Of a stretch of DNA of 64,000 nt, positions 1,960 to 53,008 are shown in pieces (the stretch's first letter is position 1; each line of letters opens with the position of its first letter). The DNA is taken from assembly GCA_041651115.1 (NCBI GenBank), contig JBAZJY010000001.1, positions 261,165 to 325,164 on the forward strand, read 5' to 3'. The DNA is from Candidatus Omnitrophota bacterium. Its GTDB lineage: Bacteria; Omnitrophota; Gorgyraeia; Gygaellales; Profunditerraquicolaceae. Position numbers and translations under genes: made by a program. The notes under the pieces were generated by a model. That model was not told the DNA's origin, searched no databases, and was given only the letters and a program-made list of their open reading frames with translations.

Positions 1960-1975
1960 AATTATAAGGAGTGTC

Positions 1976-29870: not shown

Positions 29871-29901
29871 TATTAATTGTCGCTGAACAGGGGAGGGAAA
29901 A

Positions 29902-31143
29902 ATGAAAAAGATTTTTCTGGCGCTTAGCGTATGCGCGTTCACATTGCTATCTGGTAATGCCCCCATCGCGTGTTCGGAAACCGGTGATCCTTCAAGGATA
30001 GTTGTTTGCAGTGAAATATTTAATGCGCTGGGCAAAACTGCCGGCGCTTCTAAGGAAGCCGCGGCCATTTTAGCCGGGGCGTTGACGGATAAGGATTTTT
30101 TTATCCGCGCCTCCGCGGCCAAGTCTTTGGGGCTGTTAGGTGATAAAGATTCCGCGTTGATGCTTAAGAAATTGGCCGGAGACGAGAACTACCTTGTGAT
30201 GATCAATGCTACGGCCGCTTTGGTCCACCTTGGCTTATCCGGAGAAGATGCCTTGCTTGATCTGCTTAAAGACAACAGGTCCGAAGTAAGGGGAAACGTC
30301 TTGGGCGTGTTAACTACTTTTAAGGATCAACATCCGGATGTAATACTTGAAATGTTACGCGATGAAAAAAATGATTTTGTGCGCGAGCAGGCTTTGTTGA
30401 GGCTGGGAGAAAATAAATTTATCCAAGCGCAGGAAGTTGTTATTGCGGACACGGAAAACAAGGATCCCGGAGTACGGCAGGCAGCGTGTTTTGCCCTCGG
30501 GCAGATCGGCGGCCCTGAAGCCGGCAAGTTTTTACATAAACGGTTAAGCGATGATGATCCGAGGGTGCGTGCCAGGGCCAAAGAAGCCTTAAGTGTGATT
30601 GGAGACCGCTCAATAATCAGCCTGCTTTGGCAGGACGTAAAAGAAAGAAACGCGTTTTTACGCGGCAGTTCATATGTCGCATTAGCTAATTTAAAAGAAT
30701 TTGACGTTTTGCCGCTTGTCTTAAAGGAAATCATCAGCCCTGATAGCACCTCGCACGCAAGGGCTAAGGCCGCAGAAGCATTGGTGGTCTTGAGGCCGCA
30801 TGTTTCGGAGTTGTCCACCAAAGCGCTCTCCAGCTTGAATATCGGGTCTTTATCTTCGGATAATTTAGAAATTAGCTTTGACTATAAGATCGGCGGGCAA
30901 AGCTTGACAATGACGCTCATTGCCGCGATTAATGATGTTAAAAGCCCGCTGCATCAGGACGCGCCGCTGGTAATTACCATTATGGGGTTAATGGATTGCC
31001 TGCCTGCTTTGCATCAGGCTCTGTTAATGGGTGATCCGGATATGGCAGCATCAGCTGCCTCTGCTTTAGGCGAGATGAAAGATAGCAGCGCTACGGAATA
31101 TCTTATTCAAGCCTGCAAGAAATACGGATGTGGAAAAATTTAA
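29902..31143 (+). CDS. Secreted HEAT/PBS-lyase-like repeat protein.
   Basis: A signal peptide is present ([20 protein letters not shown]). Repeated …R..AA.ALG.LGD… HEAT-like units follow. Confidence 0.6.
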
Positions 31144-33130: not shown

Positions 33131-33131
33131 C

Positions 33132-34496: not shown

Positions 34497-34510
34497 TTTA
34501 AAAAAAATAC

Positions 34511-34538
34511 TTGACAAGCTTTTTTTTTGCCATATAAT
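34511..34538 (+). promoter_or_regulatory. Sigma70-type promoter for groES-groEL.
   Basis: The -35 TTGACA at 34511-16 and the -10 TATAAT at 34533-38 are separated by a 16-nt spacer. Confidence 0.5.
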
Positions 34539-34564
34539 TAGCACTCTGTAAAATAGAGTGCTAA
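34538..34564 (+). promoter_or_regulatory. CIRCE operator (HrcA binding site).
   Basis: TTAGCACTC-tgtaaaata-GAGTGCTAA is a perfect match to the CIRCE consensus TTAGCACTC-N9-GAGTGCTAA. Confidence 0.9.
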
Positions 34565-34606
34565 AAAGCACTGTTGTTAAACAAATATTTTTAGAGGAGG
34601 TGGAGT

Positions 34607-36558
<1,952 letters not shown>

Positions 36559-36565
36559 ATAGAAT

Positions 36566-36640
36566 AGGGACGGTTCTGCGGACAAAGGGAAAAGTGTCCT
36601 GTTTTAGGGACACCTTTCGCTTTGGCCCAGAACCGTCCCT
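36566..36640. repeat. 75-nt nested-hairpin palindromic element (copy 2), intergenic after groEL.
   Basis: The element reads agggacggttctg…gtgtcctgttttagggacac…cagaaccgtccct. It may also act as a terminator. Confidence 0.7.
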
Positions 36641-36667
36641 AAGCATTAAAAAAACACCAAAAAATAT

Positions 36668-36695
36668 TTGACTAGGCGCGAAAATATGTTATACT
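36668..36695 (+). promoter_or_regulatory. Candidate promoter upstream of the giant-gene pair.
   Basis: TTGACT and TATACT are separated by 16 nt. The element lies about 190 nt upstream of the ATG at 36886. Confidence 0.3.
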
Positions 36696-36885
36696 TCTAT
36701 AAGTTTTGCGTTTCTCTGCTTTAATGCCTGCCACGGGCAAGACTGTTGAATTACTATTAGTACTGCAGTAATTCTCCTTTAAAAGCAAGCTCCTTAAGGA
36801 ACCTGTTGGGTCAATAGCCCAAATTTTTTTAGATTGTTAGTAATAACTTTTTAAAAGTCTTACCTTAGATAAGGAGAGTAACCCG

Positions 36886-39800
36886 ATGGCAATTAAATCC
36901 CCGTCCCTGCGCAAGCTCGTATCTCTACTTCTTACCTTCACCTTTCTCTTTACCCAAACCGGCTTTGCCCAGGTAGCAGCTGTTGAGCTTAACATCGGCT
37001 CGCACTTAGGAATCCTTGGCTCAAAGCTTTCTTCACCGGACAAGCTCCGCCTACCGCATTTAAGGTATTTCTCCTACGATAACCAAAATAACAATATCCA
37101 GCTTCTTTTAGATAAGGGAGACTTAAAGGACCTAAAAGACCAAGCCCTAGAGGATTCAGGAAAAGAGCTCCTAAAGTACTTCCTTATAGGCGTAACTCTT
37201 CCTGATGAGCACTTCTGGGTAAACCTTCGGCCTGATTCAGAAGAAAACATCATCCCTGAACTCTTAGCCAAGACTGATATCGGTAAAATCTTTCTTGAAG
37301 CAGATGTCCAGCTTAAAAAAGATACCGCAAGCCTAACCTCACCTAACAGCCCCCAGGGAAAGCTTTACTGGGACAAGCTCTATAAAAAAGCAGCCCAAAT
37401 CTACGGCACCCAGAATGTCACTATCCCCACCTTAACCCGTCCTTGGATTGTGCCAAATGAGATCATTATTCGCGAGTCAAAGGAAAGCGCTTACATCTAC
37501 AAGGCTACATTAAAGGTAATGTTAGAGCAGGACCACCTTAAAGGCTCGGTTAACTATAACTTTGAAGACTCCCGCGCCAAAGAACTCAATGAATATTCAT
37601 CAGAGCTTATTAGAGAACTCATCCTTCCTGAATTAACCAAGGAAGTAAACAATGCCAAACGCTATTCCCAGCTAAGACAGGTCTACTACTCTTTAATACT
37701 CGCACGCTGGTTTAAGGCCAGGTTCTACGGTAAAGGAGGCCTTTATGCTTCCTACATTAATAAAGCTAACCTAGAAGGCTTAACTTCTAACCAAAGCTGG
37801 TCAAAAGACACTTATTTTAAAGCTTACCAGTCTTCCTTTAAAGACGGCGAATATAATCTCCAGGCTACAGTAAACACCATCTCCGGCCCATCAATTAGAA
37901 GCTACTTCTCAGGCGGCATGGAATTCGGCCCTAATATGAACATTGTTACTCAAAACAGAAGCTCTGTCCCCATGATTGCCGGCTTCCAGGGTAAACTCTC
38001 AAGCCCCATGCTGATAAACGTAGGCATGAATAATGGCATGTCTTTACTTGTTGGCGCACCTACCATCAAGAATCCGATAATGCTGATGCAGGGAGTGGGG
38101 TCAAGCCCGGTTGATGAGGAGCCTAAGATTCCGAATATTAATCCTGAAGATGGGCGTATACCGGATCCTGAACCGACAGAAAACGAAAACCCTGGCGATG
38201 AGCCGGAAATTAATTATAACGATCATTCCTATGATGATCAGGAGGCGCCGGAGAAAGATGAAGAAGTTGGCTCCAGCCCGCTGACTACAGAAGAAATAAA
38301 GAACAATGCCAAGGCTGCTTTGGAGAAGTTAGTTAAGGATAATAAAGATTCGCAATTAATAAGAGAAGTTTCCGGCATTGTATTGAATGATAGGGCTAGA
38401 AACATAACTAGCCGTATATTTAAGAAGATTTCTCCCAATACGGCAAGCTCCTACGACAAAAAAATGAAAATCCTGCATCTACTCGAAACAGTTAGGCGTA
38501 GTCCAGTCCATAGTGATCTTAAAGCAGGCTGCGCGGAGGCCGCGTATTATATTAAGGAAAGAGATGATCTTGAATTTCTTAAGTGGAGAGGAAACACGGA
38601 AGTTTTTGGACCAGAACACAGGATAATCGCCAAGATGGCGGTTTTGTTTAAGACAAGAAAAGACGATGAAAGAAGTAAAATAGCACAAGAGATTATTGAT
38701 TTAGATAATAGTACGCACTATGAATCTTATCAGGTTGATTCCATGGCAAAATTTAAGACTTTATTCTATTCTGTCCAATATCTCTTTTCCGAAGACTTTG
38801 CCGCCGCCTCCAGTCCATTCAAAGTCGAACCTGTCAGTTCGTTAAAGGTATATTCTGATATTAACCAGCGCATTTGGCTTGACGGCCTGACTTTTGAGAT
38901 GCTGCTTTCAGGCGAGTTTGAAAAACTGGTGCGTGAGCATGGCATAAACGGCGTTACTACCAATCCCTCGCTCATTAAGGCTTATTTTAGCGACCAGCGG
39001 GTGATCGATAAGGCAAGGAAATTAGCTTCCGAAGGATTGGGCAAAAAAGAAATCTATTACCAGCTTGTCAGTGAACTGGCTAGAACTGCGCTGGAGATAT
39101 TCAAGAAAGCCGGTGTAGCCAATGCCAAATTCAGTGTTGAGTTGGATCCTACTGTCAATAATAGCAGCGTAGAAGAAGCTGTTGTGGAAGCAATGCAGTG
39201 GACTGACATTGATCCTGCGCACATGATGGTCAAGGTTGCCCTGACTTCCGACGCAAACGGCGTTGATACGGAAACCGGATATAAAATAATCGAAGAGGTA
39301 ATATCCCGCGGCCGCAATGTTAATGTAACGCTGATTTTCACTCCTGAACACTACAAAAAAGTCGTTCAGGCGTATATCAACGGCCTTAAGCGCGCGCTTC
39401 TTAATGTAAAGGCAGGCAAATTAAGCAAGGAAGAATTTAACCGGATTTATTCCGTTGCCAGCTTTTTTATCTCCCGTTGGGATGTTTATTTTGAGGAAAA
39501 TAAGCTTCTTGCTGATGGTGTGCATGGTAAAGCTGCTAATTCCATTGCGATCGAAGCCTATAATGAGATATTTAAATTCTTTTTCAGCGATGAAAATCCT
39601 GAATGGAAGCAGTTAAAAGATGATGCCGCGTCCATCGGCTGTGAAGTCAGGCCCCAGGAGTTCCTGCTTGCTTCCACCGGTTCTAAAGGCCCTGATATGC
39701 TTAAAAAAGGCGTCATTGATGAAAAAACCGCAGCCGAATATCCTGCCGGGATTTATGTGCATCCTTTGCAGGGCAGTTACGTCGTAAATACCCTTCCTTA

Positions 39801-42800
39801 TGGGACCATAAAACATCTGATTGAAAAGGGCGTGGCTAAGAATGAAGACGGCAGCATTGCGCAAACTATCGAATCCGGATATATCGCAAGTCAGGATGTG
39901 ATGGATTGGCTCAGAGACGCTTCCAGCATAACCGATGTAGGCGCCATACTGCTTAAGAACGCCACAACCGCCTTCCTGAAAGACTTTGCCGATATTCAGA
40001 ATACGCTTGAAGGGCTTGTCTCTGGAAAAACTTCCTCCCCGGTAAATGAACTACAGCGCGCAGACGTTAACCGGATGGTTGATGATTTATTGGGGATGTA
40101 TAAAGCAAAAGACGAGGTAGTAAGGATAGAGAAGCTGGAAGGGATTATCCGGCCTGCGGCCAAAGCCATAGAGGAATATCTTTATGGGCAGTTCGCCGAC
40201 CAGAAAATCGCCGCAAACATCTATGAGAAAGGTATGAAAAATATCATACCGAATCTTGCAAAATGGTATACCGATCCGTATATACAGGAATCTACGGTTT
40301 TAGGCATAGAAGATGCAGTAAAAGAAGGTTATTGGAAATTCATTGCCCAGGCTTATATGGCAAAAATAGCTTATGGCACTGCCGGCGTGCGCGGTAAATT
40401 TGCGTTCGGTAAATATTTCCAGCTGGTAGCTGAAGCAGCTAAGCAAGGAAAAGGCTTAAGGGTGCCTAATCTAAAAGGGCCGAATACCTTTAATGATGAA
40501 ATAGTCCGGCAGTTTACATTAGGAGTTTTAAAATTCCTGGAGAATCAGAATTCCGACCTGCCGAAATCAGGCCTGAAATTATTCACCGCTTATGACAGTA
40601 GAGTTGCAGGAAAAGAATTTGCCCAGATAATCAGGGATATTGGCCTGGCTTATGGGGTACAGGTTTATATTTCCGATGAAGCAATGCCTCTTCCGGAATT
40701 TTCCAACTCTTTAAAAGAGCTATCCGGAGGTAAGGCTGCGATCGGTATTTATATTTCCGCCAGCCACAATGTCAAGCCGGATAACGGCGTGAAATTGATC
40801 GGTGCAGACGGTATGCAATTAGGCGCTAATGACGTCCTGCGCAAGGCGGTAATGAAGGAATTTGACAGCGCAACGCTTAAAGAAGTAGCCGAGTTGCTTA
40901 AAAATTTACCTTCTGAAATACCGGCCGAACAGTTAACATTCATAGGCGGCAAAGAAGAAGAGAAGCTGCCGGGAGTTGAGTATGGAGATCATAAACTTAT
41001 TGATACCCATACCATGCATTTTAATGCCGTGCTTAAGCATGTTAAGGACCAGGAAGCAGTTAAGAAGTATGCTAAAGATATAAATATCCTTTATTGCGCT
41101 TTTCACGGCGCAGGCAGAAGGGCTGCTCCTCGCGTATTGGGCGCGTTGGGATTCAATGTGGAAAAAATAGAGAAGATGGATGCCCTGGACGGCACATTGC
41201 CTGAATTTGCAGATGCCGAGCCGCCGGATCCGGCGCTGGTTGCTTCTTGGAAAAAGGCGCTGCAGGCATATTTAAGTGAACACCGCAGGGAAGACCTGCT
41301 TAAGAAAGACCTTTTTAGCTCCAATGATCCTGACGCAGACAGGTATGGTGGAGTGATCAGGGTAAGTGCTGCAGAGATCCCTGAAGATGAGGCAGTTGCC
41401 GAAGCCATGGGCATAGCTTTCAAGCTTACCGAAGAGGAACAGGCAAAATATGGTTACGGTGGTTTTCGCGTGCTTCCGCCTAATGAATGGAATGCGCTGA
41501 TCGCTTTTTATGACCTGAAACGGTTAAAAGATCAGGGCAAACTTGACCCCAATAAGCATGTTTTAGTTTTTTCACATGTAACTTCGTACTTGATGAAAAA
41601 GATAGCTGATTATTTTGGTATAGCAGTAGTTATTAAGCCGGTAGGCGTGGATCAACTGGCTGATGAGATCGTAAAGCTGGAGAAGCAAGGCAAGATAGCT
41701 GTGAATGGAGCGGAAGAGAGCGGCACATATATGACCAGCGACCACATCCGCGACAAAGACGGCTTCCTGGCAGGCGTGCGCCTGGCAGAGATAGCCTGCG
41801 CTGCCCGCGCACAGGGCAAAACAATCAATGATCTCTTAAACGAGATATATCTTATCCCAGAGATCGGATTTTTCGCGACTACTAACTTCCCCATAGAATA
41901 CGAAGTCTCTGTTCCGGGGACTGCCGCGAAAATGGCTGCGGTAAAATTCCTGCAGAAAGACGTGAAGCCTTTGGTAGAAGAAAGAATACGCAAAGGAGAC
42001 AACCCGGTAATCGCAGGGTATAAGATACATGATGTAGACGAACAGACAGAATTCAGGTCTGGTAAATACGACGAGCCGCTTGAGTATCAGGGATATCCGG
42101 ATGCGGGTATCAGGTTCTACTTTAATCCGGAAAAAACAGGTTTTATCACTGACCGGCCGTCAGGAACCGGCCCTCAGCTGCGTTTCTACGCGCACCTGTT
42201 TTATCTTACGGAAGGGCTTGACCTGGCCGGGCTTAACACTTTGAAGAAAAACGCCTATGCCGAATGCCTAAAGGTGACGAAAGAATGGATGCGAATTACC
42301 CAGAGCAACGACATTAAGGCGCTTGTCAGTTCTCCGGTTGTCAATTCCAGGCAAATAGCAAAGGTACTTTCTGAAATGAAGAAGAATTCCGGATTGCCGA
42401 TATCAATCGCGCCGTCATTAACCGCTACTACCTGGAGTGGAGCTTTGCACGCGATTAATTTTTCCCGGCCTGTTTTTCGCAGGGTAGAACGGGAATCGCT
42501 GAATGAAGAAAGATTTACCGGAAAAACGGCTTTTACAAGCGCCGCGAGCGATACTGATGTAAAAGGCCTGACTACTTATGACGTCATAGCCGGTGAATTC
42601 AAGAGCGTGCGTACAGGTGAACAGGTGAGGGGCTTTATCACTGACCAAACTGCAGCGCTGCCCGAATATACCTATTTTATGCACCGCGGTATATTTGCTT
42701 CCCGTGAAGATATACAAAAAGCTTTTTATGACAACAAGATCCGTTTTGACATCACCGTTATTCCTCCGGGGATCTGGGGCATAGATTATGCTAAAACAGT

Positions 42801-44262
42801 GGGTCATTATCATAAGCCTATAGAGATGCCGGAGATCTATCAGGTAGTCAGTGGTGATGTGCTTTGGTTGATGCAAAAACTTGATAAAAACGGAAACGTG
42901 GAAGACTTTGTTACTGTTAGGGCCAAGGCAGGGGATATTGCGATCATGCTTCCCGGTTACGGCCATGTGAGCGTAAATCTTTCAGAAACTGCGCCGTTAG
43001 TCTTGGCGAACTGGTTGACTTGGAATCAAAGCTCTGAGTATGGATCGTTTAAAGATAAGGGCGGAGCTGCTTATTATGTGGTTAAAAATGGCGATGGCCA
43101 GCCGGAATTAAGGCCGAATCCCAAATATGTTGTAGCGCAGGGAACGCTTCCAGAACCGCGCCAGATGGTTGCTAAGGACGGCATTGAAGTATTTGGATTG
43201 AAGAGGGGCGAGCCAATTTATAATCTGGTAAAATTAGACGCGGAAGATTTTGCCAATAAGATTGATCACTTGAATAATCCAGCCAATTATGATAAAGAGC
43301 TGACTGTTGAGGCGACTTTAGATAAAGCTAACCCAGGGGATCGGATTACCTCCAGCTCACCGGTGAAAGACATCAAGTTTGAAGGTAAGAATGCCTTTAT
43401 ATCCGGAGAAGACATTGCTGCTTTAAAAGAAGGCAGGAAACATATTGAAGTAGGCATAAATGGCCAGCAGCTCATTACCATCACGGGCATTGCTTCATTG
43501 AAGCCGCAGGTTATTGCCGCGCAAACTGCTGATTATGAGATCCGGCAGAGGGCTACCACTGATAGCCACGAAGCAGTCCTGTTTAATTTTAAGAAAAAAC
43601 AGGGCGACGACGGAAATTACCATGCCGTCAAGGTGGCGTATCAGGCAATACAGGGCGGGCAGCTGGTTATTTCTTTCTGGGAATTAGGCAGGAATAACCA
43701 GTATTACGGACGTATTGTCAGCGCCTCCAGCCCGGTAAGAAAAAGTAAAGATGAGCTAGAAGAGTATGAAGTATCCAAGGGACGGACAGATGATGACGCT
43801 GGGTCTGAAATAGAGCCGGAAGAAGTGACGGATGACGCAGACCTATATCCTAATATGCCTGGCGAGGATAAGGATTCGGATGAAGATTCCTCTAGTCCTT
43901 TAGACAAAAAAGGCGGTATTGACTTCCGCTCGCTGCCTCTAACCATCCAGCCAGCAGGAAGCTTTAAGGAGCTGACGTTTTCACTGCCTCCTGCTAAACA
44001 GCTCGCCAGCATCAATATCTCAAAGGAATTAGTTGAGATCAAGAATATGGTTGATAAAGGAATCGCTCCTTCAGGTGAGAGAGTAAAGGACCTGGTTGCA
44101 GCCTGTTATCAGAAGAATGAGCTGGCCAGTCATCAGGAAGAGCTGATCTCATGTCTTATGCGCATATGTAAGCTTCAGGAAGACCTAGTCCTTCCGGTTG
44201 ATAATAGCCTAAAAGAAGCAATTGTAATTGTTGATTCACTAAATATAGCGTATGCACATTAA
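36886..44262 (+). CDS. Giant modular protein 1 (2458 aa). It comprises a signal peptide and a shared N-domain, a transaldolase-like module, an alpha-D-phosphohexomutase module, a cupin-type phosphoglucose isomerase module and a shared C-terminal domain.
   Basis: The RBS is aaggagag. The N-terminal signal peptide reads LLLTFTFLFTQTGFAQVAA. The TAL module carries GVTTNPSLI, MVKVALTS, NVNVTLIF and ASTGSK. The PGM module carries YGTAGVRG, ISASHNVKPDNG, DPDADR, GAEESGT and RPSGTGPQLRFY. The cPGI cupin module carries TVGHYHKPIEMPE and PGYGHVSVN. The modules are separated by SSP[VL] motifs. Confidence 0.8.
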   Translation: MAIKSPSLRKLVSLLLTFTFLFTQTGFAQVAAVELNIGSHLGILGSKLSSPDKLRLPHLRYFSYDNQNNNIQLLLDKGDLKDLKDQALEDSGKELLKYFLIGVTLPDEHFWVNLRPDSEENIIPELLAKTDIGKIFLEADVQLKKDTASLTSPNSPQGKLYWDKLYKKAAQIYGTQNVTIPTLTRPWIVPNEIIIRESKESAYIYKATLKVMLEQDHLKGSVNYNFEDSRAKELNEYSSELIRELILPELTKEVNNAKRYSQLRQVYYSLILARWFKARFYGKGGLYASYINKANLEGLTSNQSWSKDTYFKAYQSSFKDGEYNLQATVNTISGPSIRSYFSGGMEFGPNMNIVTQNRSSVPMIAGFQGKLSSPMLINVGMNNGMSLLVGAPTIKNPIMLMQGVGSSPVDEEPKIPNINPEDGRIPDPEPTENENPGDEPEINYNDHSYDDQEAPEKDEEVGSSPLTTEEIKNNAKAALEKLVKDNKDSQLIREVSGIVLNDRARNITSRIFKKISPNTASSYDKKMKILHLLETVRRSPVHSDLKAGCAEAAYYIKERDDLEFLKWRGNTEVFGPEHRIIAKMAVLFKTRKDDERSKIAQEIIDLDNSTHYESYQVDSMAKFKTLFYSVQYLFSEDFAAASSPFKVEPVSSLKVYSDINQRIWLDGLTFEMLLSGEFEKLVREHGINGVTTNPSLIKAYFSDQRVIDKARKLASEGLGKKEIYYQLVSELARTALEIFKKAGVANAKFSVELDPTVNNSSVEEAVVEAMQWTDIDPAHMMVKVALTSDANGVDTETGYKIIEEVISRGRNVNVTLIFTPEHYKKVVQAYINGLKRALLNVKAGKLSKEEFNRIYSVASFFISRWDVYFEENKLLADGVHGKAANSIAIEAYNEIFKFFFSDENPEWKQLKDDAASIGCEVRPQEFLLASTGSKGPDMLKKGVIDEKTAAEYPAGIYVHPLQGSYVVNTLPYGTIKHLIEKGVAKNEDGSIAQTIESGYIASQDVMDWLRDASSITDVGAILLKNATTAFLKDFADIQNTLEGLVSGKTSSPVNELQRADVNRMVDDLLGMYKAKDEVVRIEKLEGIIRPAAKAIEEYLYGQFADQKIAANIYEKGMKNIIPNLAKWYTDPYIQESTVLGIEDAVKEGYWKFIAQAYMAKIAYGTAGVRGKFAFGKYFQLVAEAAKQGKGLRVPNLKGPNTFNDEIVRQFTLGVLKFLENQNSDLPKSGLKLFTAYDSRVAGKEFAQIIRDIGLAYGVQVYISDEAMPLPEFSNSLKELSGGKAAIGIYISASHNVKPDNGVKLIGADGMQLGANDVLRKAVMKEFDSATLKEVAELLKNLPSEIPAEQLTFIGGKEEEKLPGVEYGDHKLIDTHTMHFNAVLKHVKDQEAVKKYAKDINILYCAFHGAGRRAAPRVLGALGFNVEKIEKMDALDGTLPEFADAEPPDPALVASWKKALQAYLSEHRREDLLKKDLFSSNDPDADRYGGVIRVSAAEIPEDEAVAEAMGIAFKLTEEEQAKYGYGGFRVLPPNEWNALIAFYDLKRLKDQGKLDPNKHVLVFSHVTSYLMKKIADYFGIAVVIKPVGVDQLADEIVKLEKQGKIAVNGAEESGTYMTSDHIRDKDGFLAGVRLAEIACAARAQGKTINDLLNEIYLIPEIGFFATTNFPIEYEVSVPGTAAKMAAVKFLQKDVKPLVEERIRKGDNPVIAGYKIHDVDEQTEFRSGKYDEPLEYQGYPDAGIRFYFNPEKTGFITDRPSGTGPQLRFYAHLFYLTEGLDLAGLNTLKKNAYAECLKVTKEWMRITQSNDIKALVSSPVVNSRQIAKVLSEMKKNSGLPISIAPSLTATTWSGALHAINFSRPVFRRVERESLNEERFTGKTAFTSAASDTDVKGLTTYDVIAGEFKSVRTGEQVRGFITDQTAALPEYTYFMHRGIFASREDIQKAFYDNKIRFDITVIPPGIWGIDYAKTVGHYHKPIEMPEIYQVVSGDVLWLMQKLDKNGNVEDFVTVRAKAGDIAIMLPGYGHVSVNLSETAPLVLANWLTWNQSSEYGSFKDKGGAAYYVVKNGDGQPELRPNPKYVVAQGTLPEPRQMVAKDGIEVFGLKRGEPIYNLVKLDAEDFANKIDHLNNPANYDKELTVEATLDKANPGDRITSSSPVKDIKFEGKNAFISGEDIAALKEGRKHIEVGINGQQLITITGIASLKPQVIAAQTADYEIRQRATTDSHEAVLFNFKKKQGDDGNYHAVKVAYQAIQGGQLVISFWELGRNNQYYGRIVSASSPVRKSKDELEEYEVSKGRTDDDAGSEIEPEEVTDDADLYPNMPGEDKDSDEDSSSPLDKKGGIDFRSLPLTIQPAGSFKELTFSLPPAKQLASINISKELVEIKNMVDKGIAPSGERVKDLVAACYQKNELASHQEELISCLMRICKLQEDLVLPVDNSLKEAIVIVDSLNIAYAH
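36928..38112 (+). repeat. 1.2-kb direct repeat, copy 1 (5' coding region of giant gene 1).
   Basis: This tract is near-identical to 44321-45505. About 900 nt are perfectly identical, then mismatches become increasingly frequent, with no indels. Confidence 0.85.
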
Positions 44263-47200
44263 TCCTCAAAAAAGGGGACGTTTCCGGGAAACGTCCCCTT
44301 TTTCAAGATTTATTTCCCTGCTTCTTACCTTCACCTTTCTCTTTACCCAAACCGGCTTTGCCCAGGTAGCAGCTGTTGAGCTTAACATCGGCTCGCACTT
44401 AGGAATCCTTGGCTCAAAGCTTTCTTCACCGGACAAGCTCCGCCTACCGCATTTAAGGTATTTCTCCTACGATAACCAAAATAACAATATCCAGCTTCTT
44501 TTAGATAAGGGAGACTTAAAGGACCTAAAAGACCAAGCCCTAGAGGATTCAGGAAAAGAGCTCCTAAAGTACTTCCTTATAGGCGTAACTCTTCCTGATG
44601 AGCACTTCTGGGTAAACCTTCGGCCTGATTCAGAAGAAAACATCATCCCTGAACTCTTAGCCAAGACTGATATCGGTAAAATCTTTCTTGAAGCAGATGT
44701 CCAGCTTAAAAAAGATACCGCAAGCCTAACCTCACCTAACAGCCCCCAGGGAAAGCTTTACTGGGACAAGCTCTATAAAAAAGCAGCCCAAATCTACGGC
44801 ACCCAGAATGTCACTATCCCCACCTTAACCCGTCCTTGGATTGTGCCAAATGAGATCATTATTCGCGAGTCAAAGGAAAGCGCTTACATCTACAAGGCTA
44901 CATTAAAGGTAATGTTAGAGCAGGACCACCTTAAAGGCTCGGTTAACTATAACTTTGAAGACTCCCGCGCCAAAGAACTCAATGAATATTCATCAGAGCT
45001 TATTAGAGAACTCATCCTTCCTGAATTAACCAAGGAAGTAAACAATGCCAAACGCTATTCCCAGCTAAGACAGGTCTACTACTCTTTAATACTCGCACGC
45101 TGGTTTAAGGCCAGGTTCTACGGTAAAGGAGGCCTTTATGCTTCCTACATTAATAAAGCTAACCTAGAAGGCTTAACTTCTAACCAAAGCTGGTCAAAAG
45201 ACACTTATTTTAAAGCTTACCAGTCTTCTTTTAAAGACGGCGAATATAATCTCCAGGCTACAGTAAACACCATCTCCGGCCCATCAATTAGAAGCTATTT
45301 CTCAGGCGGCATGGAATTCGGCCCTAATATGAACATCGTTACTCAAAACAGAAGCTCTATCCCCATGATTGCCGGCTTCCAAGGCAAGCTCTCAAGTCCT
45401 ATGCTGATGAAGATTGGCAATGAGAACGGCATGGTGAGCCTTATGGGCGCGCCGACGATTAAGAATCCGATAATGCTGATGCAGGGAGTGGGGTCAAGCC
45501 CGGTAAAAGAGATTGATCTTGAAAATGGCAGCTTCCCGATTATGTTTGACAATGGCAACATAATAATTGAAAGAAACAATGAAAATAATTTTACCCGGGT
45601 AAAGCTTCAAAATAAAAAAGGCGATATTTTTATGTTTTCTCTAGAGGATAAGATTTATTTCTTACCTGACGAGAAGATCGTTTCGGTAAAAGATGATGAA
45701 CCGGTATTTGATGTTCAGGTGCGGCTTAATGTTGAGATCAACGGCCGCGCAGTAAAGAGTATTAATTTTGATCGGGATATTACAAGGCCATACGAGCTTA
45801 GTATAAGTAACGATGAAGCCGGTAAAAAATTAACCGTGGCGTTAGACTCCAGGGTTTATGAACAGCTATTCAATACTGACGAGACTAAGAGGTTCCTTAT
45901 AAGCGAAGCAACAGCCACCAAAGGCGGGTATAAGCTGATCATAAAGGAAATGAACTCTAGCCCGGTTACGGTAGATTCGGGAAAAATATCCCGGGTGCTT
46001 GATGATGAACTTGTAAAAAACCTGTTAACTTGGCAGGGAAGAAACGGTAATCCTGCTATATGGTATATTGGCATTGAAGATTACAGTGAGACGCATCCCT
46101 TTACAGTTTCTGAAGCAGCCAGGAACAAGGTTAAGTTAGTAGATTATGCCTATAAGACGGTAGTGGATGCGGCCGAGCGATATCAACTTAATCCCCAGGA
46201 GAAAGTTAATTTGATCAACATTCTGGCTAAGCAGCTCAATTTTGCAGGAGCGGAAATCCAGGATAATCACGCAATCGTTTCCAAATACGATTATTATGAC
46301 CGTCTAAGGAATATAGCCGCTCAGGTAGATTCCAATGAACTAAAAACCTGGCTTCTGAACTCTGCTCTTCAGAACTCCGATCTGTCAAGAGGGGTTAATT
46401 ACTTTTCCGCGGCCGTAGATAATTTTGAGGACGATGTAGCGTGGGCCGGCAGTTATTTTAACCTTTACAGTAAAATCCCCAACAGCAAAGCATTTAAATA
46501 TACGCTGGCCATGCTATTGCTTAGTAAAAATCCGGCGCATCATGATGGCGCGATGTGGATCATAAATGAGAAACTCGGTGGTTACGATATCGGGAATCAA
46601 GATGGAGCGTGGCAGTTCTATAGGGAAGCAGTAATAGATGCATTGGGGAAAAAAGACGGGGACATAGCTGCTGAATATGCCGATCTTTTTGTAAAAAACG
46701 CGGCGAGAAAAATTGGTATATTAGCCGTCTCCAGTCCGCTGGCAAAAGATAGTAAGGAAGTTTTACAGAAAATTATGCAAAGCACCGATCCTCTCTGGAG
46801 CTATCCGTTGGATGCCTTAGAGTACCACTTAAAAAATAATCCCTCGCTTCTGCCTGTAGAAGATTATGCGCAGAATGCTAAAGGCGTAGAGGACTTCGTC
46901 GTTACGTTGGCAAAGAAAGCCAGAGAGTTACGCGATAAAGACAGCGTAGAAGGCCCGGCTTTAGGCGGCAGCTATCCCTATTATGGCATAATCTTTAACG
47001 TAGTGAGGTTGAGCTTAGATAAAATAGAAGTTTCCTCCGGATACAAGAAAGCAATACTTAATCTGTTTTCTGATATAGCCGGCTATGAAGACGTTAAAGA
47101 TAGTATCGGCGAAAATCTATCAGAGATGCTCAAGGCTTTAATTATAAAAGGCATTCTTAGTTCCGGAGAGATTATTGAGATCGCGCAAATGTTTTCGTTG

Positions 47201-50089
47201 ACCCCGAATACCCCCGAAGAGTATTCTGCGGGAATGATTGAAATAGCTATCCAGCATAAGCGTATTAACGCAGATGCTTATCTTGATTATGCCTTGCCGC
47301 TTATTGTAGGGGCAATAGAGAGAAGCCAGTTACCCGAATTCCATTTTAGTATTCTTGAGCCTAGGCATGTTTTAGAGATTGCCAAAGCCATTTGGCAAAA
47401 TGAACGGTTAAGCCTTAATGACAAAGGGTATCCGGATGCGCAGGAAGTGGATGAGTTTATTAAACAGGCAGATGAAAATATCTCCGCGATGCGCAAGAAT
47501 AAAGCATTATTTGACGGGCTATATCAGGACATACAAGCCGCAAAGCTTAAGTCACAAACCGAAACCGGCCTTGAAAGCTCTCCGATTAATGTTAGCGGTT
47601 TTGGAATACCGGAAGCAGCGGGAAATCGTATCAAAGCCGTAGCCGTACCGTCTGACAAAATCAACCATGACTTTTATACCCAGCTGAACAAAAAAGGCTA
47701 TGCCGTGGTTTTTTCCGATACGGAAGAGAATTTCGGCGCTTTTCTGCAGTCATTTGGCAAATATCAGATTCTTATCGGCAATGATAACCCCTTATTCATT
47801 AAACAAATGAGCGGGATGGGGGTAGTTTTAGAAGGCGATAAAGAAGAAAATAGCCGGAGGATAACGGATGCTTTAAAAAAATTCAATCCTCTGCCGCTGG
47901 AGGTAAAAAGATACGCAGGGCAGTTAGCAGATACCCTTGTGGGATCCGAACTGCGCGGTTATATTGACGGTTTGGATAAAGCCCTCTTGCGCGAGAAACT
48001 TATTCAGTTGTTTTCAAGCGAAAGGCCTATGGAGAGATTTGAGCGGGTAGTAGAATATAGGGATGCCGCTTATAAAGTAGAGATACACTGGAAAGATATC
48101 CTCTTGGGAGATTATGTCATATCTTTTAGGGTAAGCAATGCGAATGACAACAGCACGGTCAGCCTGATCTCTGTCCATTCATTTGACAGGAATGCTCCTG
48201 TCAACCGGACATTCCGGCTATTAGACCAGGCTAATGGTTTTGCTCCGCTGGCCTCCAGCCCGGTCAACGTAGGGGAAAAGGTAGCGGAATTCAAGCGGCT
48301 TATTCCTAGTGTAGAAAATTCGCAGATCAAGGTGATTGTAATGCCGTATACTGAGAATAGTTTTCTGCCTGCTTATTTTATGCTGGCGCTCATGTATAAG
48401 ATACCCGAAGGGTCATATTTAAATGATGCGTACAAAGAGGGCAAGGCTTACCGTTTTTATACTACCGGCGTAGATAAGGTTAGAGAACATACCGCAGCCA
48501 TGCTTTTGGGTAAGGCCAATGAGCTTGGCCCGCAGAACTGCCTGTTTATCAGCGCTGATCCGCAGAAGATAGAAGAAGCCCTTAAGTATGGCTGGAAGAC
48601 TGTATTATTGGGCAAAAACGCAGAAGACAATGCCCTGGCAGTAGCGGATATTTTAAATGGTAATGGGGCTATTGTCAGCTCGCCGGTGCAGGGGGAATTA
48701 GGCCAATTATTAATCAGGGACCTGTTGGGTTTAGATGAAACCCCGTCACCGGAAACAGCGCTTAAGTTATTACAGGAGAAGCTCGCATTCTATCAGAAAA
48801 AAGGCTTGTTTTATCGGTCAGGCGAATTTTATGTCCTTGAGGGATACATGGACGATGGGACAGCTTATAATGACTGGGTTGAAAATCCGATCCAGGCTTT
48901 GGTTCTAGCTATGCGTTTCAATAAGGAAAAGTATAAATTGGATCCGGCGACTAAGAAACTTTTGTTGGAGCAAATAGAGGGTTACCGGGAGGGTAAGTAT
49001 TATGTTTTTGAGGGAGGCGGTTTCTCTTTTTCCGTGGAAGATCCCGTAGAAGCTTATGGTATGGCCTTAGAGGATCAAGGATTAGGCAGCGGTATCGGAC
49101 AAAGCTCGCCGTTAGAGGGAGCACGCACGGTTAATGAACTGGGTGAGGCATTGGATGCATATATTGACAGCGGCTATTTTTTTGCTGACGGCTGGAACGA
49201 GCTTTTAAGCTACAGGGATAAGGCGGTCATCAGACGCTTGGGAGAACTGCTTAAAGCTAATGATGCCATGGTCACGGTAATAAGACAATTCATCAAGTCG
49301 CAGTCCAATACGCTTATTCCTTTCGGGATGGATTCGGATAAAGTGTATGAATATATGGAGAATGGGATATTTTCTTTTACGGAGGTCAGCTCTCCGGTGC
49401 AGGCGATAGATGTAATAATACATCCTGCCGAGGGTATAGATGATAAAATTATAAGAATATTAGAATCTCCCAAAACAAAAGAGTTGGTCATGCAAGTAGC
49501 TAAAGAGGCCGTTAATAAGGTAGTTGGTGCTGGTTTCTTGGGAGAGATTGACGGTCAAAAGTTAACCTATCGTTTTCAGGTAGAAAGAGACAAGGATAAC
49601 GTACCTGTAGATATTTCCTTTGACATACGCAATCTTCCTCTTACCCTAGATACTTTTGAACTCCCTAAGTATGATGTCTATGGCCATGCTGAAATAATCC
49701 TTGAAAGGCAATCCCAAAGCTCACCTGTAAATACCGAAGACGCTCATAAGAAAGGCGGTATCGACTTCCGCTCGCTGCCTCTAACCATCCAGCCTGTAGG
49801 AAGCTTTAAGGAATTGCAGTTTTCACTTCCCCCGGCTGAATCTTTAGCTCAAATCAACATCTCAAAGGAATTGGTTGAGATTAAGAGCATGGTAGATAAA
49901 GGAATCGTTCCTTCAGGTGAGAGAGTCAAGGACTTAGTTGCTGCCTGCTACCACAAACAGGAACTATCCAGCCATCAGGAAGAGCTGATGTCTTGCCTGA
50001 TGCGCATCTGCAAGCTTGAAGAAGATATGGTTATGCCTGCTAACGCCAGCCTTAAAGAAGCGATCGTGATTGTGGATAGTATAAAGTAA
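44252..50089 (+). CDS. Giant modular protein 2 (1945 aa). It shares the N-domain and C-terminal domain with protein 1, but its core consists of eight different modules of unknown function.
   Basis: The ATG at 44252 overlaps the end of gene 1 (ATGCACATTAA). Translation would read through the terminator hairpin before entering the shared signal-peptide region. The core modules are again delimited by SSP[VLI] motifs. Confidence 0.7.
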   Translation: MHINPQKRGRFRETSPFSRFISLLLTFTFLFTQTGFAQVAAVELNIGSHLGILGSKLSSPDKLRLPHLRYFSYDNQNNNIQLLLDKGDLKDLKDQALEDSGKELLKYFLIGVTLPDEHFWVNLRPDSEENIIPELLAKTDIGKIFLEADVQLKKDTASLTSPNSPQGKLYWDKLYKKAAQIYGTQNVTIPTLTRPWIVPNEIIIRESKESAYIYKATLKVMLEQDHLKGSVNYNFEDSRAKELNEYSSELIRELILPELTKEVNNAKRYSQLRQVYYSLILARWFKARFYGKGGLYASYINKANLEGLTSNQSWSKDTYFKAYQSSFKDGEYNLQATVNTISGPSIRSYFSGGMEFGPNMNIVTQNRSSIPMIAGFQGKLSSPMLMKIGNENGMVSLMGAPTIKNPIMLMQGVGSSPVKEIDLENGSFPIMFDNGNIIIERNNENNFTRVKLQNKKGDIFMFSLEDKIYFLPDEKIVSVKDDEPVFDVQVRLNVEINGRAVKSINFDRDITRPYELSISNDEAGKKLTVALDSRVYEQLFNTDETKRFLISEATATKGGYKLIIKEMNSSPVTVDSGKISRVLDDELVKNLLTWQGRNGNPAIWYIGIEDYSETHPFTVSEAARNKVKLVDYAYKTVVDAAERYQLNPQEKVNLINILAKQLNFAGAEIQDNHAIVSKYDYYDRLRNIAAQVDSNELKTWLLNSALQNSDLSRGVNYFSAAVDNFEDDVAWAGSYFNLYSKIPNSKAFKYTLAMLLLSKNPAHHDGAMWIINEKLGGYDIGNQDGAWQFYREAVIDALGKKDGDIAAEYADLFVKNAARKIGILAVSSPLAKDSKEVLQKIMQSTDPLWSYPLDALEYHLKNNPSLLPVEDYAQNAKGVEDFVVTLAKKARELRDKDSVEGPALGGSYPYYGIIFNVVRLSLDKIEVSSGYKKAILNLFSDIAGYEDVKDSIGENLSEMLKALIIKGILSSGEIIEIAQMFSLTPNTPEEYSAGMIEIAIQHKRINADAYLDYALPLIVGAIERSQLPEFHFSILEPRHVLEIAKAIWQNERLSLNDKGYPDAQEVDEFIKQADENISAMRKNKALFDGLYQDIQAAKLKSQTETGLESSPINVSGFGIPEAAGNRIKAVAVPSDKINHDFYTQLNKKGYAVVFSDTEENFGAFLQSFGKYQILIGNDNPLFIKQMSGMGVVLEGDKEENSRRITDALKKFNPLPLEVKRYAGQLADTLVGSELRGYIDGLDKALLREKLIQLFSSERPMERFERVVEYRDAAYKVEIHWKDILLGDYVISFRVSNANDNSTVSLISVHSFDRNAPVNRTFRLLDQANGFAPLASSPVNVGEKVAEFKRLIPSVENSQIKVIVMPYTENSFLPAYFMLALMYKIPEGSYLNDAYKEGKAYRFYTTGVDKVREHTAAMLLGKANELGPQNCLFISADPQKIEEALKYGWKTVLLGKNAEDNALAVADILNGNGAIVSSPVQGELGQLLIRDLLGLDETPSPETALKLLQEKLAFYQKKGLFYRSGEFYVLEGYMDDGTAYNDWVENPIQALVLAMRFNKEKYKLDPATKKLLLEQIEGYREGKYYVFEGGGFSFSVEDPVEAYGMALEDQGLGSGIGQSSPLEGARTVNELGEALDAYIDSGYFFADGWNELLSYRDKAVIRRLGELLKANDAMVTVIRQFIKSQSNTLIPFGMDSDKVYEYMENGIFSFTEVSSPVQAIDVIIHPAEGIDDKIIRILESPKTKELVMQVAKEAVNKVVGAGFLGEIDGQKLTYRFQVERDKDNVPVDISFDIRNLPLTLDTFELPKYDVYGHAEIILERQSQSSPVNTEDAHKKGGIDFRSLPLTIQPVGSFKELQFSLPPAESLAQINISKELVEIKSMVDKGIVPSGERVKDLVAACYHKQELSSHQEELMSCLMRICKLEEDMVMPANASLKEAIVIVDSIK
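44274..44303 (+). terminator. Rho-independent terminator/attenuator between the giant genes, lying inside the 5' coding region of gene 2.
   Basis: A perfect 11-bp stem ggggacgtttcc-ggg-aaacgtcccc is followed by ttttt. Confidence 0.6.
44321..45505 (+). repeat. 1.2-kb direct repeat, copy 2 (5' coding region of giant gene 2).
   Basis: It matches copy 1 at a constant offset of 7393 nt. Confidence 0.85.
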
Positions 50090-50121
50090 AAGCCCGCCTT
50101 TTCCCTCGCCTACCTTTTTAC

Positions 50122-50150
50122 TTGACAAAACCCCGTAAGTGTTGTAAAAT
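50122..50150 (+). promoter_or_regulatory. Sigma70-type promoter upstream of the guaB-like/guaA pair.
   Basis: TTGACA and TAAAAT are separated by a 17-nt spacer. Confidence 0.45.
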
Positions 50151-52934: not shown

Positions 52935-53000
52935 TTTAGGTCTTAGGTGTTAGGCATTGCATTCTGCCACCTATGACCTATCACCTAACACCTATCACCT
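52935..53000. repeat. TAGGTGATAGG-family palindromic repeat, intergenic between guaA and dnaE.
   Basis: The left arm is tttaggtcttaggtgttaggc. The right arm cacctatgacctatcacctaacacctatcacctag is an inverted repeat of it. Confidence 0.65.
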
Positions 53001-53008
53001 AGAAGACC

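What the first reader, a model, noticed from the sequence alone, without database searches (positions are those of the whole stretch)
44240..44330. Giant gene 2 starts inside the stop region of gene 1 and is read through a perfect terminator hairpin
The only in-frame ATG for gene 2 is at 44252 and overlaps the end of gene 1 (ATGCACATTAA). The next 50 nt encode the positively charged n-region of the signal peptide (HINPQKRGRFRETSPF). These same 50 nt also form an 11-bp GC-rich hairpin followed by a U-tract (44274-44303). Homology to gene 1 begins only after this, inside the hydrophobic core of the signal peptide. The implication is translational coupling combined with partial termination. That arrangement would set a fixed lower dose of protein 2 relative to protein 1.
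Basis: partly seen in the sequence, partly recalled or inferred. Interest (0 to 1): 0.55.

Follow-up and report, generated by a model that had tools for sequence, protein, structure and literature searches.

The report
Terminator hairpin translated inside downstream gene
In an uncultured Omnitrophota bacterium, the second of two tandem giant paralogous genes has no promoter, ribosome-binding site or start of its own, so it can only be made by restarting translation at the end of gene 1 and reading through gene 1's transcription-terminator hairpin; this looks like a recent by-product of recombination, not a conserved regulatory device.

Summary
ATG 44252 overlaps gene 1's TAA (44260-62). It is the only canonical start in any frame up to 44357, and the next in-frame start is codon 198. 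A perfect 16-bp hairpin with a U-tract (44268-44303, -25 kcal/mol, z = -5.6) lies in codons 6-17 of gene 2. Identity to gene 1 starts at 44315.

The hairpin is a real terminator-type unit. A near-identical copy sits 13 nt after the stop of a paralogous giant gene elsewhere in the same genome, in clearly intergenic DNA. Four related genomes carry a hairpin after their single giant gene at this locus.

Gene 2 has no promoter and no Shine-Dalgarno sequence. No terminator follows it.

The 5' regions of genes 1 and 2 share a 908-nt tract of 100% identity, which looks like gene conversion. Relatives have only one gene here, so the tandem arrangement is derived.

It fits E. coli data on terminators placed close to stop codons. 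Whether it is a tuned design is unproven.

I call it a new variant of a known kind, of moderate interest. The surrounding protein family and the palindromic repeats are more intriguing than the junction itself.

The parts
36668..36695 (+). Promoter-like site of gene 1 (TTGACT-16-TATACT with TG). It is the only plausible promoter feeding gene 2.
   Evidence: 10 of 12 matches. The 5' leader 36700-36885 is conserved in relatives L003, L004, L007 and L008.
36886..44262 (+). Gene 1. It has a signal-like N-terminus, a ~400-aa family N-domain, transaldolase, PGM/PMM and cupin-GPI modules, and a ~125-aa family C-domain.
   Evidence: Orthologs occupy the same locus in L004, L007 and L008.
36928..37835 (+). 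Copy 1 of a 908-nt tract that is 100% identical between gene 1 and gene 2. It is the core of the 1190-nt repeat 36922-38111.
   Evidence: All 32 differences lie at the two edges. The MEGAHIT contig L208 ends at 37068 = 36928+140.
44252..44262 (+). Start/stop overlap ATGCACATTAA. Gene 2's ATG is at 44252-54 and gene 1's TAA at 44260-62. There is no SD upstream.
   Evidence: Anti-SD duplex energy is +0.6 kcal/mol, against -6 to -12 for most well-supported genes in the window.
44268..44303 (+). 36-nt palindromic terminator-type unit: A6, GGGGACGTTTCC, G, GGAAACGTCCCC, T5. It equals 12 codons (QKRGRFRETSPF) of gene 2's n-region. The G+C core is 44274-44298 and the U-tract is 44299-44303.
   Evidence: The second copy is at L088 14097-14136, after the stop of paralog P0047.
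44252..44362 (+). Predicted signal peptide of gene 2 (37 aa). The n-region is 20 aa, the h-region is ISLLLTFTFLFTQTGF, and the cleavage motif is GFA|Q.
   Evidence: Family norm: the start lies 20-27 codons before the A of FAQ, against 36 here.
44304..44320 (+). Gene 2's own diverged remnant of the n-region (FSRFIS region), left of the conversion tract.
   Evidence: FSR-FISL resembles L003 FSGKILSL and gene 1 SLRKLVSL.
44321..45228 (+). Copy 2 of the 908-nt identical tract.
44252..50089 (+). Gene 2. It has the family N-domain, about 1385 aa of almost orphan cargo with SSP linkers, and the family C-domain.
50090..50121 (+). Spacer after gene 2's stop. It has no hairpin (MFE -0.1 kcal/mol), where relatives have their terminator.
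50122..50150 (+). Conserved guaB3 promoter (TTGACA-17-TAAAAT).
   Evidence: 11 of 12 matches. The same motif is present in L003, L004 and L007.

Best explanation
The hairpin is gene 1's own Rho-independent terminator. It is one copy of a 36-40-nt palindromic unit that this genome also uses after another gene of the same family.

Gene 2 is a paralog placed immediately 3' of that terminator. It has lost, or never had, a promoter, a Shine-Dalgarno sequence and a start codon of its own. Its first ~1.2 kb has been homogenised with gene 1 by gene conversion.

A secreted protein 2 can therefore be made in only one way:
1. RNA polymerase coming from gene 1's promoter reads through the hairpin.
2. A ribosome that has just terminated gene 1 at TAA 44260 reinitiates 8 nt upstream at ATG 44252.
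3. That ribosome translates the 12 hairpin codons as a Lys/Arg-rich extension of the signal peptide's n-region.

Read-through is plausible because the G+C stem starts only 11 nt after the stop codon. At that distance a terminating ribosome is expected to hinder hairpin folding.

Protein 2 is thus obligatorily coupled to protein 1 and made in smaller amounts. The anatomy is shown. Termination, read-through and reinitiation are inferred. The arrangement is most likely a recent, tolerated by-product of recombination in a rapidly shuffling gene family, not a conserved regulatory invention.
For: - Anatomy and lack of alternatives: there is a single canonical start, no SD, no promoter-like site between 43300 and 45500 on the + strand, and no competing RNA fold.
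- Terminator identity: MFE -25 kcal/mol, z = -5.6, d-score +21.6. It is the strongest post-stop structure among 41 ORFs.
- Second copy: near-identical arms and A5/T5 tracts lie 13 nt after the stop of paralog P0047 in the same organism. That copy is followed by a promoter and the next gene.
- Relatives: L003, L004 and L007 each have a -21 to -31 kcal/mol hairpin between their single giant gene and the conserved guaB3 promoter. In the window nothing folds after gene 2.
- Other species: many family genes are followed by AAAAGGGGCGT-type sequences.
- Derived state: L003, L004, L007 and L008 carry one giant gene between groEL and guaB3.
- Gene conversion: 908 nt are 100% identical with diverged edges.
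- Gene 2 looks alive: the ORF is intact over 1945 codons, codon usage is native-like, and SSP linkers occur 11 times against 0.43 expected.
- Coupling occurs elsewhere in the family: a TAATG overlap with an SD joins tandem members in L073.
- E. coli precedent (PMC4824070): tR2 is almost fully repressed at 8-9 bp from a stop codon and reaches ~0.9 efficiency beyond 30 bp. A terminator 30 bp after an AUG keeps most of its efficiency.
Against: - There are no expression data.
- Reinitiation without an SD is usually inefficient. Combined with a good terminator, protein 2 could be negligible.
- Transcripts that stop at the hairpin still carry ATG 44252 and no stop codon. They would give non-stop translation, a cost that argues against a refined design.
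- The perfect 908-nt identity could partly reflect repeat collapse by the assembler.
- The behaviour of intrinsic terminators and of transcription-translation coupling in Omnitrophota is unknown.
- The origin is unresolved. Either gene 2 was joined to the terminator, or the unit inserted into gene 2.
Confidence: 0.55

Rival explanations
1. Gene 2 is effectively silent. It would be a promoterless, start-less family cassette parked behind a functional terminator, either a young pseudogene or a recombination reservoir. The ATG overlap would be fortuitous. Recombination between the 908-nt direct repeats would delete gene 1's cargo and put gene 2's cargo under gene 1's promoter, SD and signal peptide. 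Gene conversion could also shuffle modules.
For: - Gene 2 has no SD and no promoter, and a canonical terminator lies upstream of its body.
- All three frames are open through the hairpin, and exactly one of them reaches a start, so the 'working' frame is a 1-in-3 accident (my reading).
- The 908-nt perfect direct repeats show ongoing recombination.
- Relatives carry different cargos at the same locus: L003 has a no-Pfam type, while L004, L007 and L008 have the transaldolase/PGM type.
- Gene 2's cargo is almost an orphan.
Against: - The ORF is intact over 1945 codons, with native codon usage and family-typical SSP linkers.
- The in-frame ATG sits at the earliest possible position after a stop, right at gene 1's stop. 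That is the classic geometry for coupling.
- The terminator's closeness to the stop codon predicts leakiness (PMC4824070).
- No deletion variant was seen. Only two other assemblies were reachable, and both break at or near the repeats.
Confidence: 0.22
2. The palindrome is primarily a mobile or repeated REP/MITE-like unit, not gene 1's ancestral terminator. It would have inserted in frame into the n-region of an already translationally coupled gene 2, in the manner of a Rickettsia palindromic element. It would be tolerated because signal-peptide n-regions accept Lys/Arg-rich insertions. Any terminator activity would be a side effect.
For: - The unit is exactly 36 nt, or 12 codons, with no stop codon.
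- Removing it conceptually gives MHINPPRFISLLL..., a start 24 codons before the FAQ alanine. That is inside the family norm of 20-27, against 36 now.
- The flanks of the two copies are unalignable while the arms are identical, so it is a discrete unit.
- Other GGGAC-type palindromes in the same window lie in frame inside ORFs. A 78-nt element (26 codons) sits at the panK/downstream-gene junction, again just before a signal-peptide h-region. A 37-nt palindrome sits in a valS loop that is 5 aa longer than in relatives.
- In another species (L064) a palindrome is inserted inside a family signal peptide.
- GGGAC N3-30 GTCCC occurs 5 times in the window against 0.46 expected.
Against: - No empty site, target duplication or transposase was found.
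- Only two copies were seen in about 110 kb of this genome.
- Relatives already have a terminator at this position after the resident gene. Keeping it in place is more parsimonious than losing it and then inserting a new unit.
- The absence of a terminator after gene 2 fits 'gene 2 landed behind the terminator'.
- The metagenome hits to the same stem (116 or more contigs, GC 28-73%) may be near chance, because the two arms of a palindrome are not independent.
Confidence: 0.18
3. The tandem junction is an assembly artefact, for example a chimera of two strain variants of the locus, or an indel error that shifts the frame.
For: - The source is a metagenome-assembled genome.
- A 908-nt exact repeat is hard to assemble.
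- Relatives show that alternative cargos exist at this locus.
Against: - The junction (terminator + CAAGATTTATTTCCCTG + repeat) contains unique sequence that must come from reads.
- The independent MEGAHIT contig L208 ends exactly k = 141 nt into the repeat, as expected if two different left contexts enter it.
- The Logan contig L091 confirms the gene 2 3' end joined to guaB3.
- No start codon exists in any frame between 44255 and 44357, so a homopolymer indel would not create a conventional start.
Confidence: 0.04

Closest known systems
Internal (intra-operon) intrinsic terminators that set subunit ratios. Examples are the HicA^T B toxin-antitoxin operon (PMC11878559) and ABC-importer operons of cellulolytic Clostridia (PMC9045158).
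   Same: A G+C hairpin with a U-tract lies between two co-transcribed cistrons and lowers the downstream mRNA relative to the upstream one. The HicAB paper reports about a 10-fold difference.
   Different: In those cases the terminator is intergenic and the downstream gene has its own RBS. In the HicAB family the 'terminator' and 'overlapping ORFs' architectures are alternatives. Here both occur together, and the hairpin is translated.
Phage lambda tR2 with a translation start upstream of it, and the E. coli position-function study of tR2 (PMC4824070).
   Same: A start codon lies about 30 nt upstream of a terminator hairpin, so the terminator sits in the first codons of an ORF. Termination is ribosome-gated when the hairpin is within about 10-20 nt of a stop codon. 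Terminated transcripts give non-stop translation.
   Different: That is a synthetic reporter context with short ORFs. Here the ORF is a 1945-codon secreted-type protein, the hairpin encodes part of its signal peptide, and the start has no SD and overlaps the upstream stop.
Translational coupling by termination-reinitiation at overlapping stop/start codons. This is general bacterial knowledge. A family example is the TAATG junction in L073.
   Same: The start codon lies within a few nt of the upstream stop on the same strand, so downstream translation depends on upstream ribosomes.
   Different: The overlap is 11 nt with the ATG upstream of the stop. There is no SD, unlike L073 with GGGAG. A stable hairpin starts 17 nt after the ATG.
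Rickettsia palindromic elements (RPE) and other MITE/REP-like repeats found in frame in ORFs, and SPRITE, the pneumococcal repeat that resembles a Rho-independent terminator (review PMC10969869).
   Same: A short palindromic repeat unit is present in more than one copy. It is translated in frame without stop codons, or it looks like a terminator.
   Different: RPEs are about 100-150 bp and insert inside globular proteins. This unit is 36-40 nt. Only two copies are known so far, both right after stops of genes of one family. No evidence of mobility was found.

Membership tests
Rho-independent (intrinsic) terminator | G+C-rich stem-loop immediately followed by a U-tract | tested here: met
   The stem is 11 bp (7 G-C pairs) with a CGG loop, followed by U5 and then CAAGAUUUAUUU. 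MFE is -25.3 kcal/mol and the d-score is +21.6.
Rho-independent (intrinsic) terminator | Position just downstream of a stop codon at the end of a transcription unit | tested here: met
   The unit starts 5 nt after gene 1's TAA and the core starts 11 nt after it. The paralogous copy lies 13 nt after P0047's stop in intergenic DNA. Relatives have hairpins at the equivalent site.
Rho-independent (intrinsic) terminator | RNA 3' ends and transcript release at the U-tract in vivo or in vitro | not testable with these tools
   No transcriptome is available for this uncultured organism.
Translational coupling (termination-reinitiation) | The downstream start lies within a few nucleotides of the upstream stop on the same strand | tested here: met
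   ATG 44252 lies 8 nt upstream of TAA 44260. The overlap is ATGCACATTAA.
Translational coupling (termination-reinitiation) | Downstream translation depends on upstream translation (no independent initiation) | tested here: inconclusive
   No SD is present (duplex energy +0.6 kcal/mol), which is consistent with dependence. Dependence itself needs an experiment.
Sec-type signal peptide | Positively charged n-region, hydrophobic h-region and a small-x-small cleavage motif | tested here: met
   The n-region carries K7, R8, R10, R12 and R19 against E13. The h-region is ISLLLTFTFLFTQTGF and the motif is GFA|Q. These were read from the sequence and the pattern holds in 95 family members. No SignalP-type predictor was run.
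Leader-peptide transcription attenuator | An alternative antiterminator structure competes with the terminator | tested here: not met
   Folding 44170-44340 keeps the hairpin as the dominant structure. No competing pairing with its arms appears.
REP/MITE-like repeated palindromic element (including RPE-like in-frame insertion) | Multiple dispersed copies with conserved sequence and unrelated flanks | tested here: inconclusive
   Two copies were found in about 110 kb of this genome, with identical 12-nt arms and unalignable flanks. The whole genome was not available. The wide metagenome hits may be chance.
REP/MITE-like repeated palindromic element (including RPE-like in-frame insertion) | Evidence of insertion: an empty site in a relative, a target duplication, or a cognate transposase | tested here: not met
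   No relative has the tandem pair, so no empty site exists. No direct repeats flank the unit. A transposase was not searched for genome-wide.
REP/MITE-like repeated palindromic element (including RPE-like in-frame insertion) | Length is a multiple of 3 and the unit is open in the host frame | tested here: met
   The unit is 36 nt, or 12 codons. All three frames are open. Removing it restores a family-typical signal-peptide length.

The most novel reading that the evidence does not exclude
The terminator inside the signal peptide could be a functional, ribosome-gated checkpoint. RNA polymerase would enter the 5.8-kb gene 2 only when a ribosome finishing gene 1 sits close enough behind it to block the hairpin. 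That same ribosome would then reinitiate. Protein 2, which shares its first ~350 mature residues with protein 1, would be made as a fixed minor partner and only on fully coupled transcripts. A second, independent hairpin + T-run inside the n-region of family genes in another species (L068/L083) would then reflect a recurrent solution for giant secreted proteins. A related reading is that the 908-nt direct repeats make the pair a recombinational cargo switch.
Probability: 0.12. Interest if true: 0.65.

Novelty: new variant of a known kind. Interest (0 to 1): 0.4.

Why it matters
If the arrangement is functional, it would be a compact natural example of three layers sharing the same 50 nt: transcription termination, translational reinitiation and signal-peptide coding. 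The terminator's leakiness would be set by its distance from the upstream stop codon. That is of interest for operon stoichiometry and for synthetic biology.

More broadly, it shows how new members of a very large, undescribed Omnitrophota family of modular giant proteins arise and get expressed. It also shows that terminator-like palindromes in these compact genomes are repeatedly absorbed into coding sequence, especially into signal-peptide n-regions.

If it is only a by-product, it is a caution for annotation. The longest-ORF start is here the only possible start, yet the gene may be barely expressed.

Tried and rejected
- Alternative start or promoter for gene 2: none found. There is no canonical start in any frame from 44255 to 44357, ATT 44312 and CTG 44318 would lack an n-region and an SD, and there is no + strand promoter-like site nearby.
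- Frameshift fusion of gene 1 and gene 2: rejected. Gene 2's frame is closed by TAG 44246 just upstream, the 12-nt window has no slippery or RF2-like motif, and gene 2 carries its own h-region.
- Orthologous junctions: relatives have only one gene at the locus. Exact hairpin 25-mer scans of the metagenome and genome collections found nothing.
- Exact look-ups of genes 1 and 2 and dnaE found nothing on record.
- Homologs of gene 2's cargo: none in 5.8 billion proteins. One ~140-aa module matched in 1.84 billion representatives.
- Rfam: only 4 tRNAs in the window.
- Literature: three Omnitrophota papers and preprints do not describe this family.
- Loop-tolerant metagenome scan for the hairpin stem: 116 or more hits in contigs of 28-73% GC, none with family domains. 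I judged this uninformative about homology because palindrome arms are not independent.
- dN/dS on the repeat (0.23) says little, because all differences sit at the older, diverged edges.
Full report
**Source and setting.** The window is part of a 647-kb contig of a Candidatus Omnitrophota MAG with locus tags WC532_. The local gene order is valS..., panK, groES, groEL, gene 1, gene 2, guaB3, guaA, dnaE.

**Observation check.**
- Gene 1 is 36886..44262 and gene 2 is 44252..50089. They overlap as ATGCACATTAA.
- In gene 2's frame, stops at 44240 and 44246 immediately precede the ATG.
- No ATG, GTG or TTG exists in any frame from 44255 to 44357. The next in-frame canonical start is codon 198.
- The hairpin is real: GGGGACGTTTC-CGG-GAAACGTCCCC, extended by A/U pairs to 16 perfect pairs. 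MFE is -25.3 kcal/mol, z = -5.6.
- It is the longest perfect stem in the window and the strongest structure after any of 41 stop codons.
- Its classical terminator discriminant is +21.6.
- The built-in scan missed it, probably because its stem extension consumes the T-run.
- Identity to gene 1 begins at 44315 = 36922, inside the h-region.

**What the two genes are.**
- Both belong to a very large Omnitrophota family. At least 819 proteins scored E <= 1e-5 among the candidates examined.
- Members share a signal-like N-terminus, a ~400-aa N-domain and a ~125-aa C-domain. Between these lie highly variable cargo modules: PGK, enolase, GAPDH, TIM, transketolase, PPDK, guanylate kinase and others.
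- Gene 1 carries transaldolase, PGM/PMM and cupin-GPI modules.
- Gene 2's 1385-aa cargo is almost an orphan. It nevertheless has native codon usage, and the family's SSP linker motif occurs 11 times against 0.43 expected. I read it as a genuine family member, not junk.

**The hairpin is a terminator-type unit belonging to gene 1's 3' end.**
- An ENA contig from the same organism encodes proteins 100% identical to WC532_00055 and WC532_00635. In it, the paralog P0047 is followed 13 nt after its stop by AAAAAGGGGACGTTTCCCGGTAGGGAAACGTCCCCTTTTT.
- That copy has the same 12-nt arms and A/T tracts. Its flanks are unalignable. It is followed by a promoter-like site and the next gene. Its terminator score is +46.9.
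- Four syntenic relatives, about 73-76% identical in groEL and guaB3, have a single giant gene between groEL and guaB3. In L003, L004 and L007 that gene is followed by a -21 to -31 kcal/mol hairpin and then the conserved guaB3 promoter.
- In the window the hairpin follows gene 1, and nothing folds after gene 2 (-0.1 kcal/mol).
- Many family genes in other species are followed by AAAAGGGGCGT-like sequence.

**The tandem arrangement is derived and recently recombining.**
- Within the 1190-nt gene 1/gene 2 repeat, 908 nt (36928-37835 = 44321-45228) are 100% identical. All 32 differences lie at the edges. This is the signature of a gene-conversion tract.
- One caveat applies. An assembler can collapse near-identical repeats, which would exaggerate the identity.
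- The structure is supported independently. A MEGAHIT k141 contig equals window 24918-37068 and stops exactly 141 nt into the repeat. A Logan contig equals 49765-51788.

**How gene 2 can be expressed.**
- No promoter-like site precedes it.
- The ATG has no SD. The anti-SD duplex energy is +0.6 kcal/mol, against -6 to -12 for most well-supported genes in the window.
- No antiterminator fold competes with the hairpin.
- Transcription must therefore come from gene 1's promoter and pass the hairpin. Translation must start at ATG 44252, most plausibly by reinitiation of ribosomes terminating 8 nt downstream.
- Coupled tandem members exist in the family: L073 has TAATG with an SD and no hairpin.
- In E. 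coli, tR2 is almost fully repressed when 8-9 bp from a stop codon and reaches ~0.9 efficiency only beyond ~30 bp. A terminator 30 bp after an AUG keeps most of its activity and produces non-stop transcripts (PMC4824070).
- By analogy, which is inference, the 5-11-nt spacing here predicts a leaky, ribosome-gated terminator. Gene 2's own translation would not rescue termination.
- The window copy is also weaker than the intergenic copy: an 11-bp stem with a triloop against a 13-bp stem with a tetraloop.

**Origin (inference, unresolved).**
- (a) Gene 2 was joined directly to the terminator.
  - Gene 2's remaining n-region (TSPFSR-FISLLL) aligns with gene 1 (KSPSLRKLVSLLL) and with L003/L007 (KFSGKILSL, KFPRKVLSL).
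  - TCCCCTTTT is shared between the hairpin's 3' arm and a plausible ancestral n-region. A microhomology deletion could therefore have removed gene 2's RBS and first codons.
  - This option keeps the terminator where relatives have it.
- (b) The 36-nt unit inserted in frame into an already coupled gene 2.
  - Removing it gives MHINPPRFISLLL, a start 24 codons before the FAQ alanine. The family norm is 20-27 and the current value is 36.
- Under either option the frame that reaches an ATG is one of three, since all three frames are open through the hairpin.
- Gene 1's C-terminal tail is 8 aa after the VD motif, against 2-3 in its orthologs. The ATG sits in that extension.

**Context that favours a tolerated accident.**
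- The window holds other GGGAC-type palindromes absorbed into ORFs.
- A 78-nt nested palindrome (26 codons) lies at the panK/downstream-gene junction, again directly before a signal-peptide h-region. A second copy of it follows groEL.
- A 37-nt palindrome lies in a valS loop that is 5 aa longer than in relatives.
- In other species, L064 has a palindrome inside a family signal peptide. L068/L083 have a G+C hairpin plus T6 inside a forced-long n-region.
- Only 3 of about 90 surveyed family genes, representing two independent events, have a hairpin in the n-region. This is therefore not a family-wide device.

**Verdict.**
Its adaptive 'fixed-dose' purpose is unproven.
- A silent-cassette state remains possible.
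- The closest known cases are internal operon terminators (PMC11878559, PMC9045158), the lambda tR2 position effects (PMC4824070), overlapping-codon coupling, and in-frame palindromic repeats such as RPE and SPRITE (PMC10969869).
- It is a new variant of a known kind. Interest is 0.4.

Noticed in passing
window 36886-44262 and 44252-50089; proteins P0001-P0120: Genes 1 and 2 belong to a very large Omnitrophota-only family (at least 819 hits). Members share a signal-like N-terminus, a ~400-aa N-domain and a ~125-aa C-domain (KGGIDFRxLP...). These bracket highly variable cargo, mostly central-carbon enzymes (PGK, enolase, GAPDH, TIM, transketolase, PPDK, PGM, transaldolase) and nucleotide kinases. 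Modules are separated by SSP[VILM] motifs, 10-11 per protein against ~0.45 expected, which looks polyprotein-like. Neither domain matches Pfam, NCBIfam or PDB sequences; the AF2 model of the N-domain has no PDB fold match, and the C-domain was not modelled. The three Omnitrophota papers I checked do not describe the family. Why glycolytic enzymes would carry a signal peptide is unexplained.
   Followed up: partly
window 33853-33931 and 36565-36641; L088 2761-2838; also L001/L010, L014, L070: A ~78-nt nested palindromic element with the terminal inverted repeat TAGGGACGGTTCTG (-48 to -54 kcal/mol). The copies differ in sequence yet fold into the same long nested hairpin. One copy lies 7 nt after the groEL stop. 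Another is exactly 26 codons in frame and fuses panK with the downstream secreted protein into one 454-aa ORF, where relatives have two overlapping genes. Similar terminal repeats occur in other Omnitrophota species.
   Followed up: partly
window 28130-28166: A 37-nt palindrome (AGTCAGGGACTGTCCCCG / CGGGGGCTGTCCCTGACT) is translated in frame within valS, between the catalytic and anticodon-binding domains. The loop there is 5 aa longer than in three relatives.
   Followed up: partly
loci L092-L207 (metagenome contigs): The stem GGGGACGTTTC...GAAACGTCCCC occurs in at least 116 metagenome contigs whose GC content ranges from 28 to 73%. Extended arms recur (…TCTATTT…AAATAGA…, …TCACC…GGTGA…) and extra GGGGAC/GTCCCC motifs often lie nearby. 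I could not tell whether this is chance among the many perfect hairpins or a widespread REP-like class.
   Followed up: partly
L068 9881-9990 and L083 (Omnitrophica WOR_2 GWF2_43_52): Two paralogous family genes in another species have a forced-long n-region (MTHNAQRPPQSIGGRPPRQCGGRIAHFFF). It contains a G+C hairpin followed by T6, and no alternative start exists. This sits at the head of a transcription unit, not behind another gene.
   Followed up: partly
L064 ~9940-9975; L020 ~9870-9910: The palindrome CCTGCCTGCCGGCAGGCAGGCAGG is inserted in frame in the c-region of a family signal peptide (QQT-CLPAGRQA-FAQ). The same kind of palindrome lies upstream of the start in L020.
   Followed up: no
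window 36700-36885: Gene 1's 5' leader is conserved across relatives that are only ~75% identical in coding DNA. Conserved pieces include gttttgcg...cctgccacgggcaa and the palindrome actttttaaaagt just before the SD. It may be a regulatory leader. It has no Rfam match.
   Followed up: no
window 34538-34564: A perfect CIRCE operator (TTAGCACTC-N9-GAGTGCTAA) lies upstream of groES/groEL.
   Followed up: no
window 1832-1966 and 52937-53001: Palindromes built from TTAGG/TTAAGG-like short repeats (51-nt arms at 1842-1950). The palindrome TAGGTCTTAGGTGTTAGG / CCTAACACCTATCACCTA fills the guaA-dnaE gap.
   Followed up: no
window 45542-49696: Gene 2's 1385-aa cargo has no homolog at E <= 1e-5 in 5.8 billion proteins. 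One ~140-aa module (aa 1340-1480) is 45% identical to part of P0121.
   Followed up: yes
L063 13917-13950: In another Omnitrophota species, the hairpin GGGGACGTTTCT-GGGTTTTT-AGAAACGTCCCC lies at a gene end. The upstream ORF appears to read through it to a TAA right after the 3' arm.
   Followed up: no
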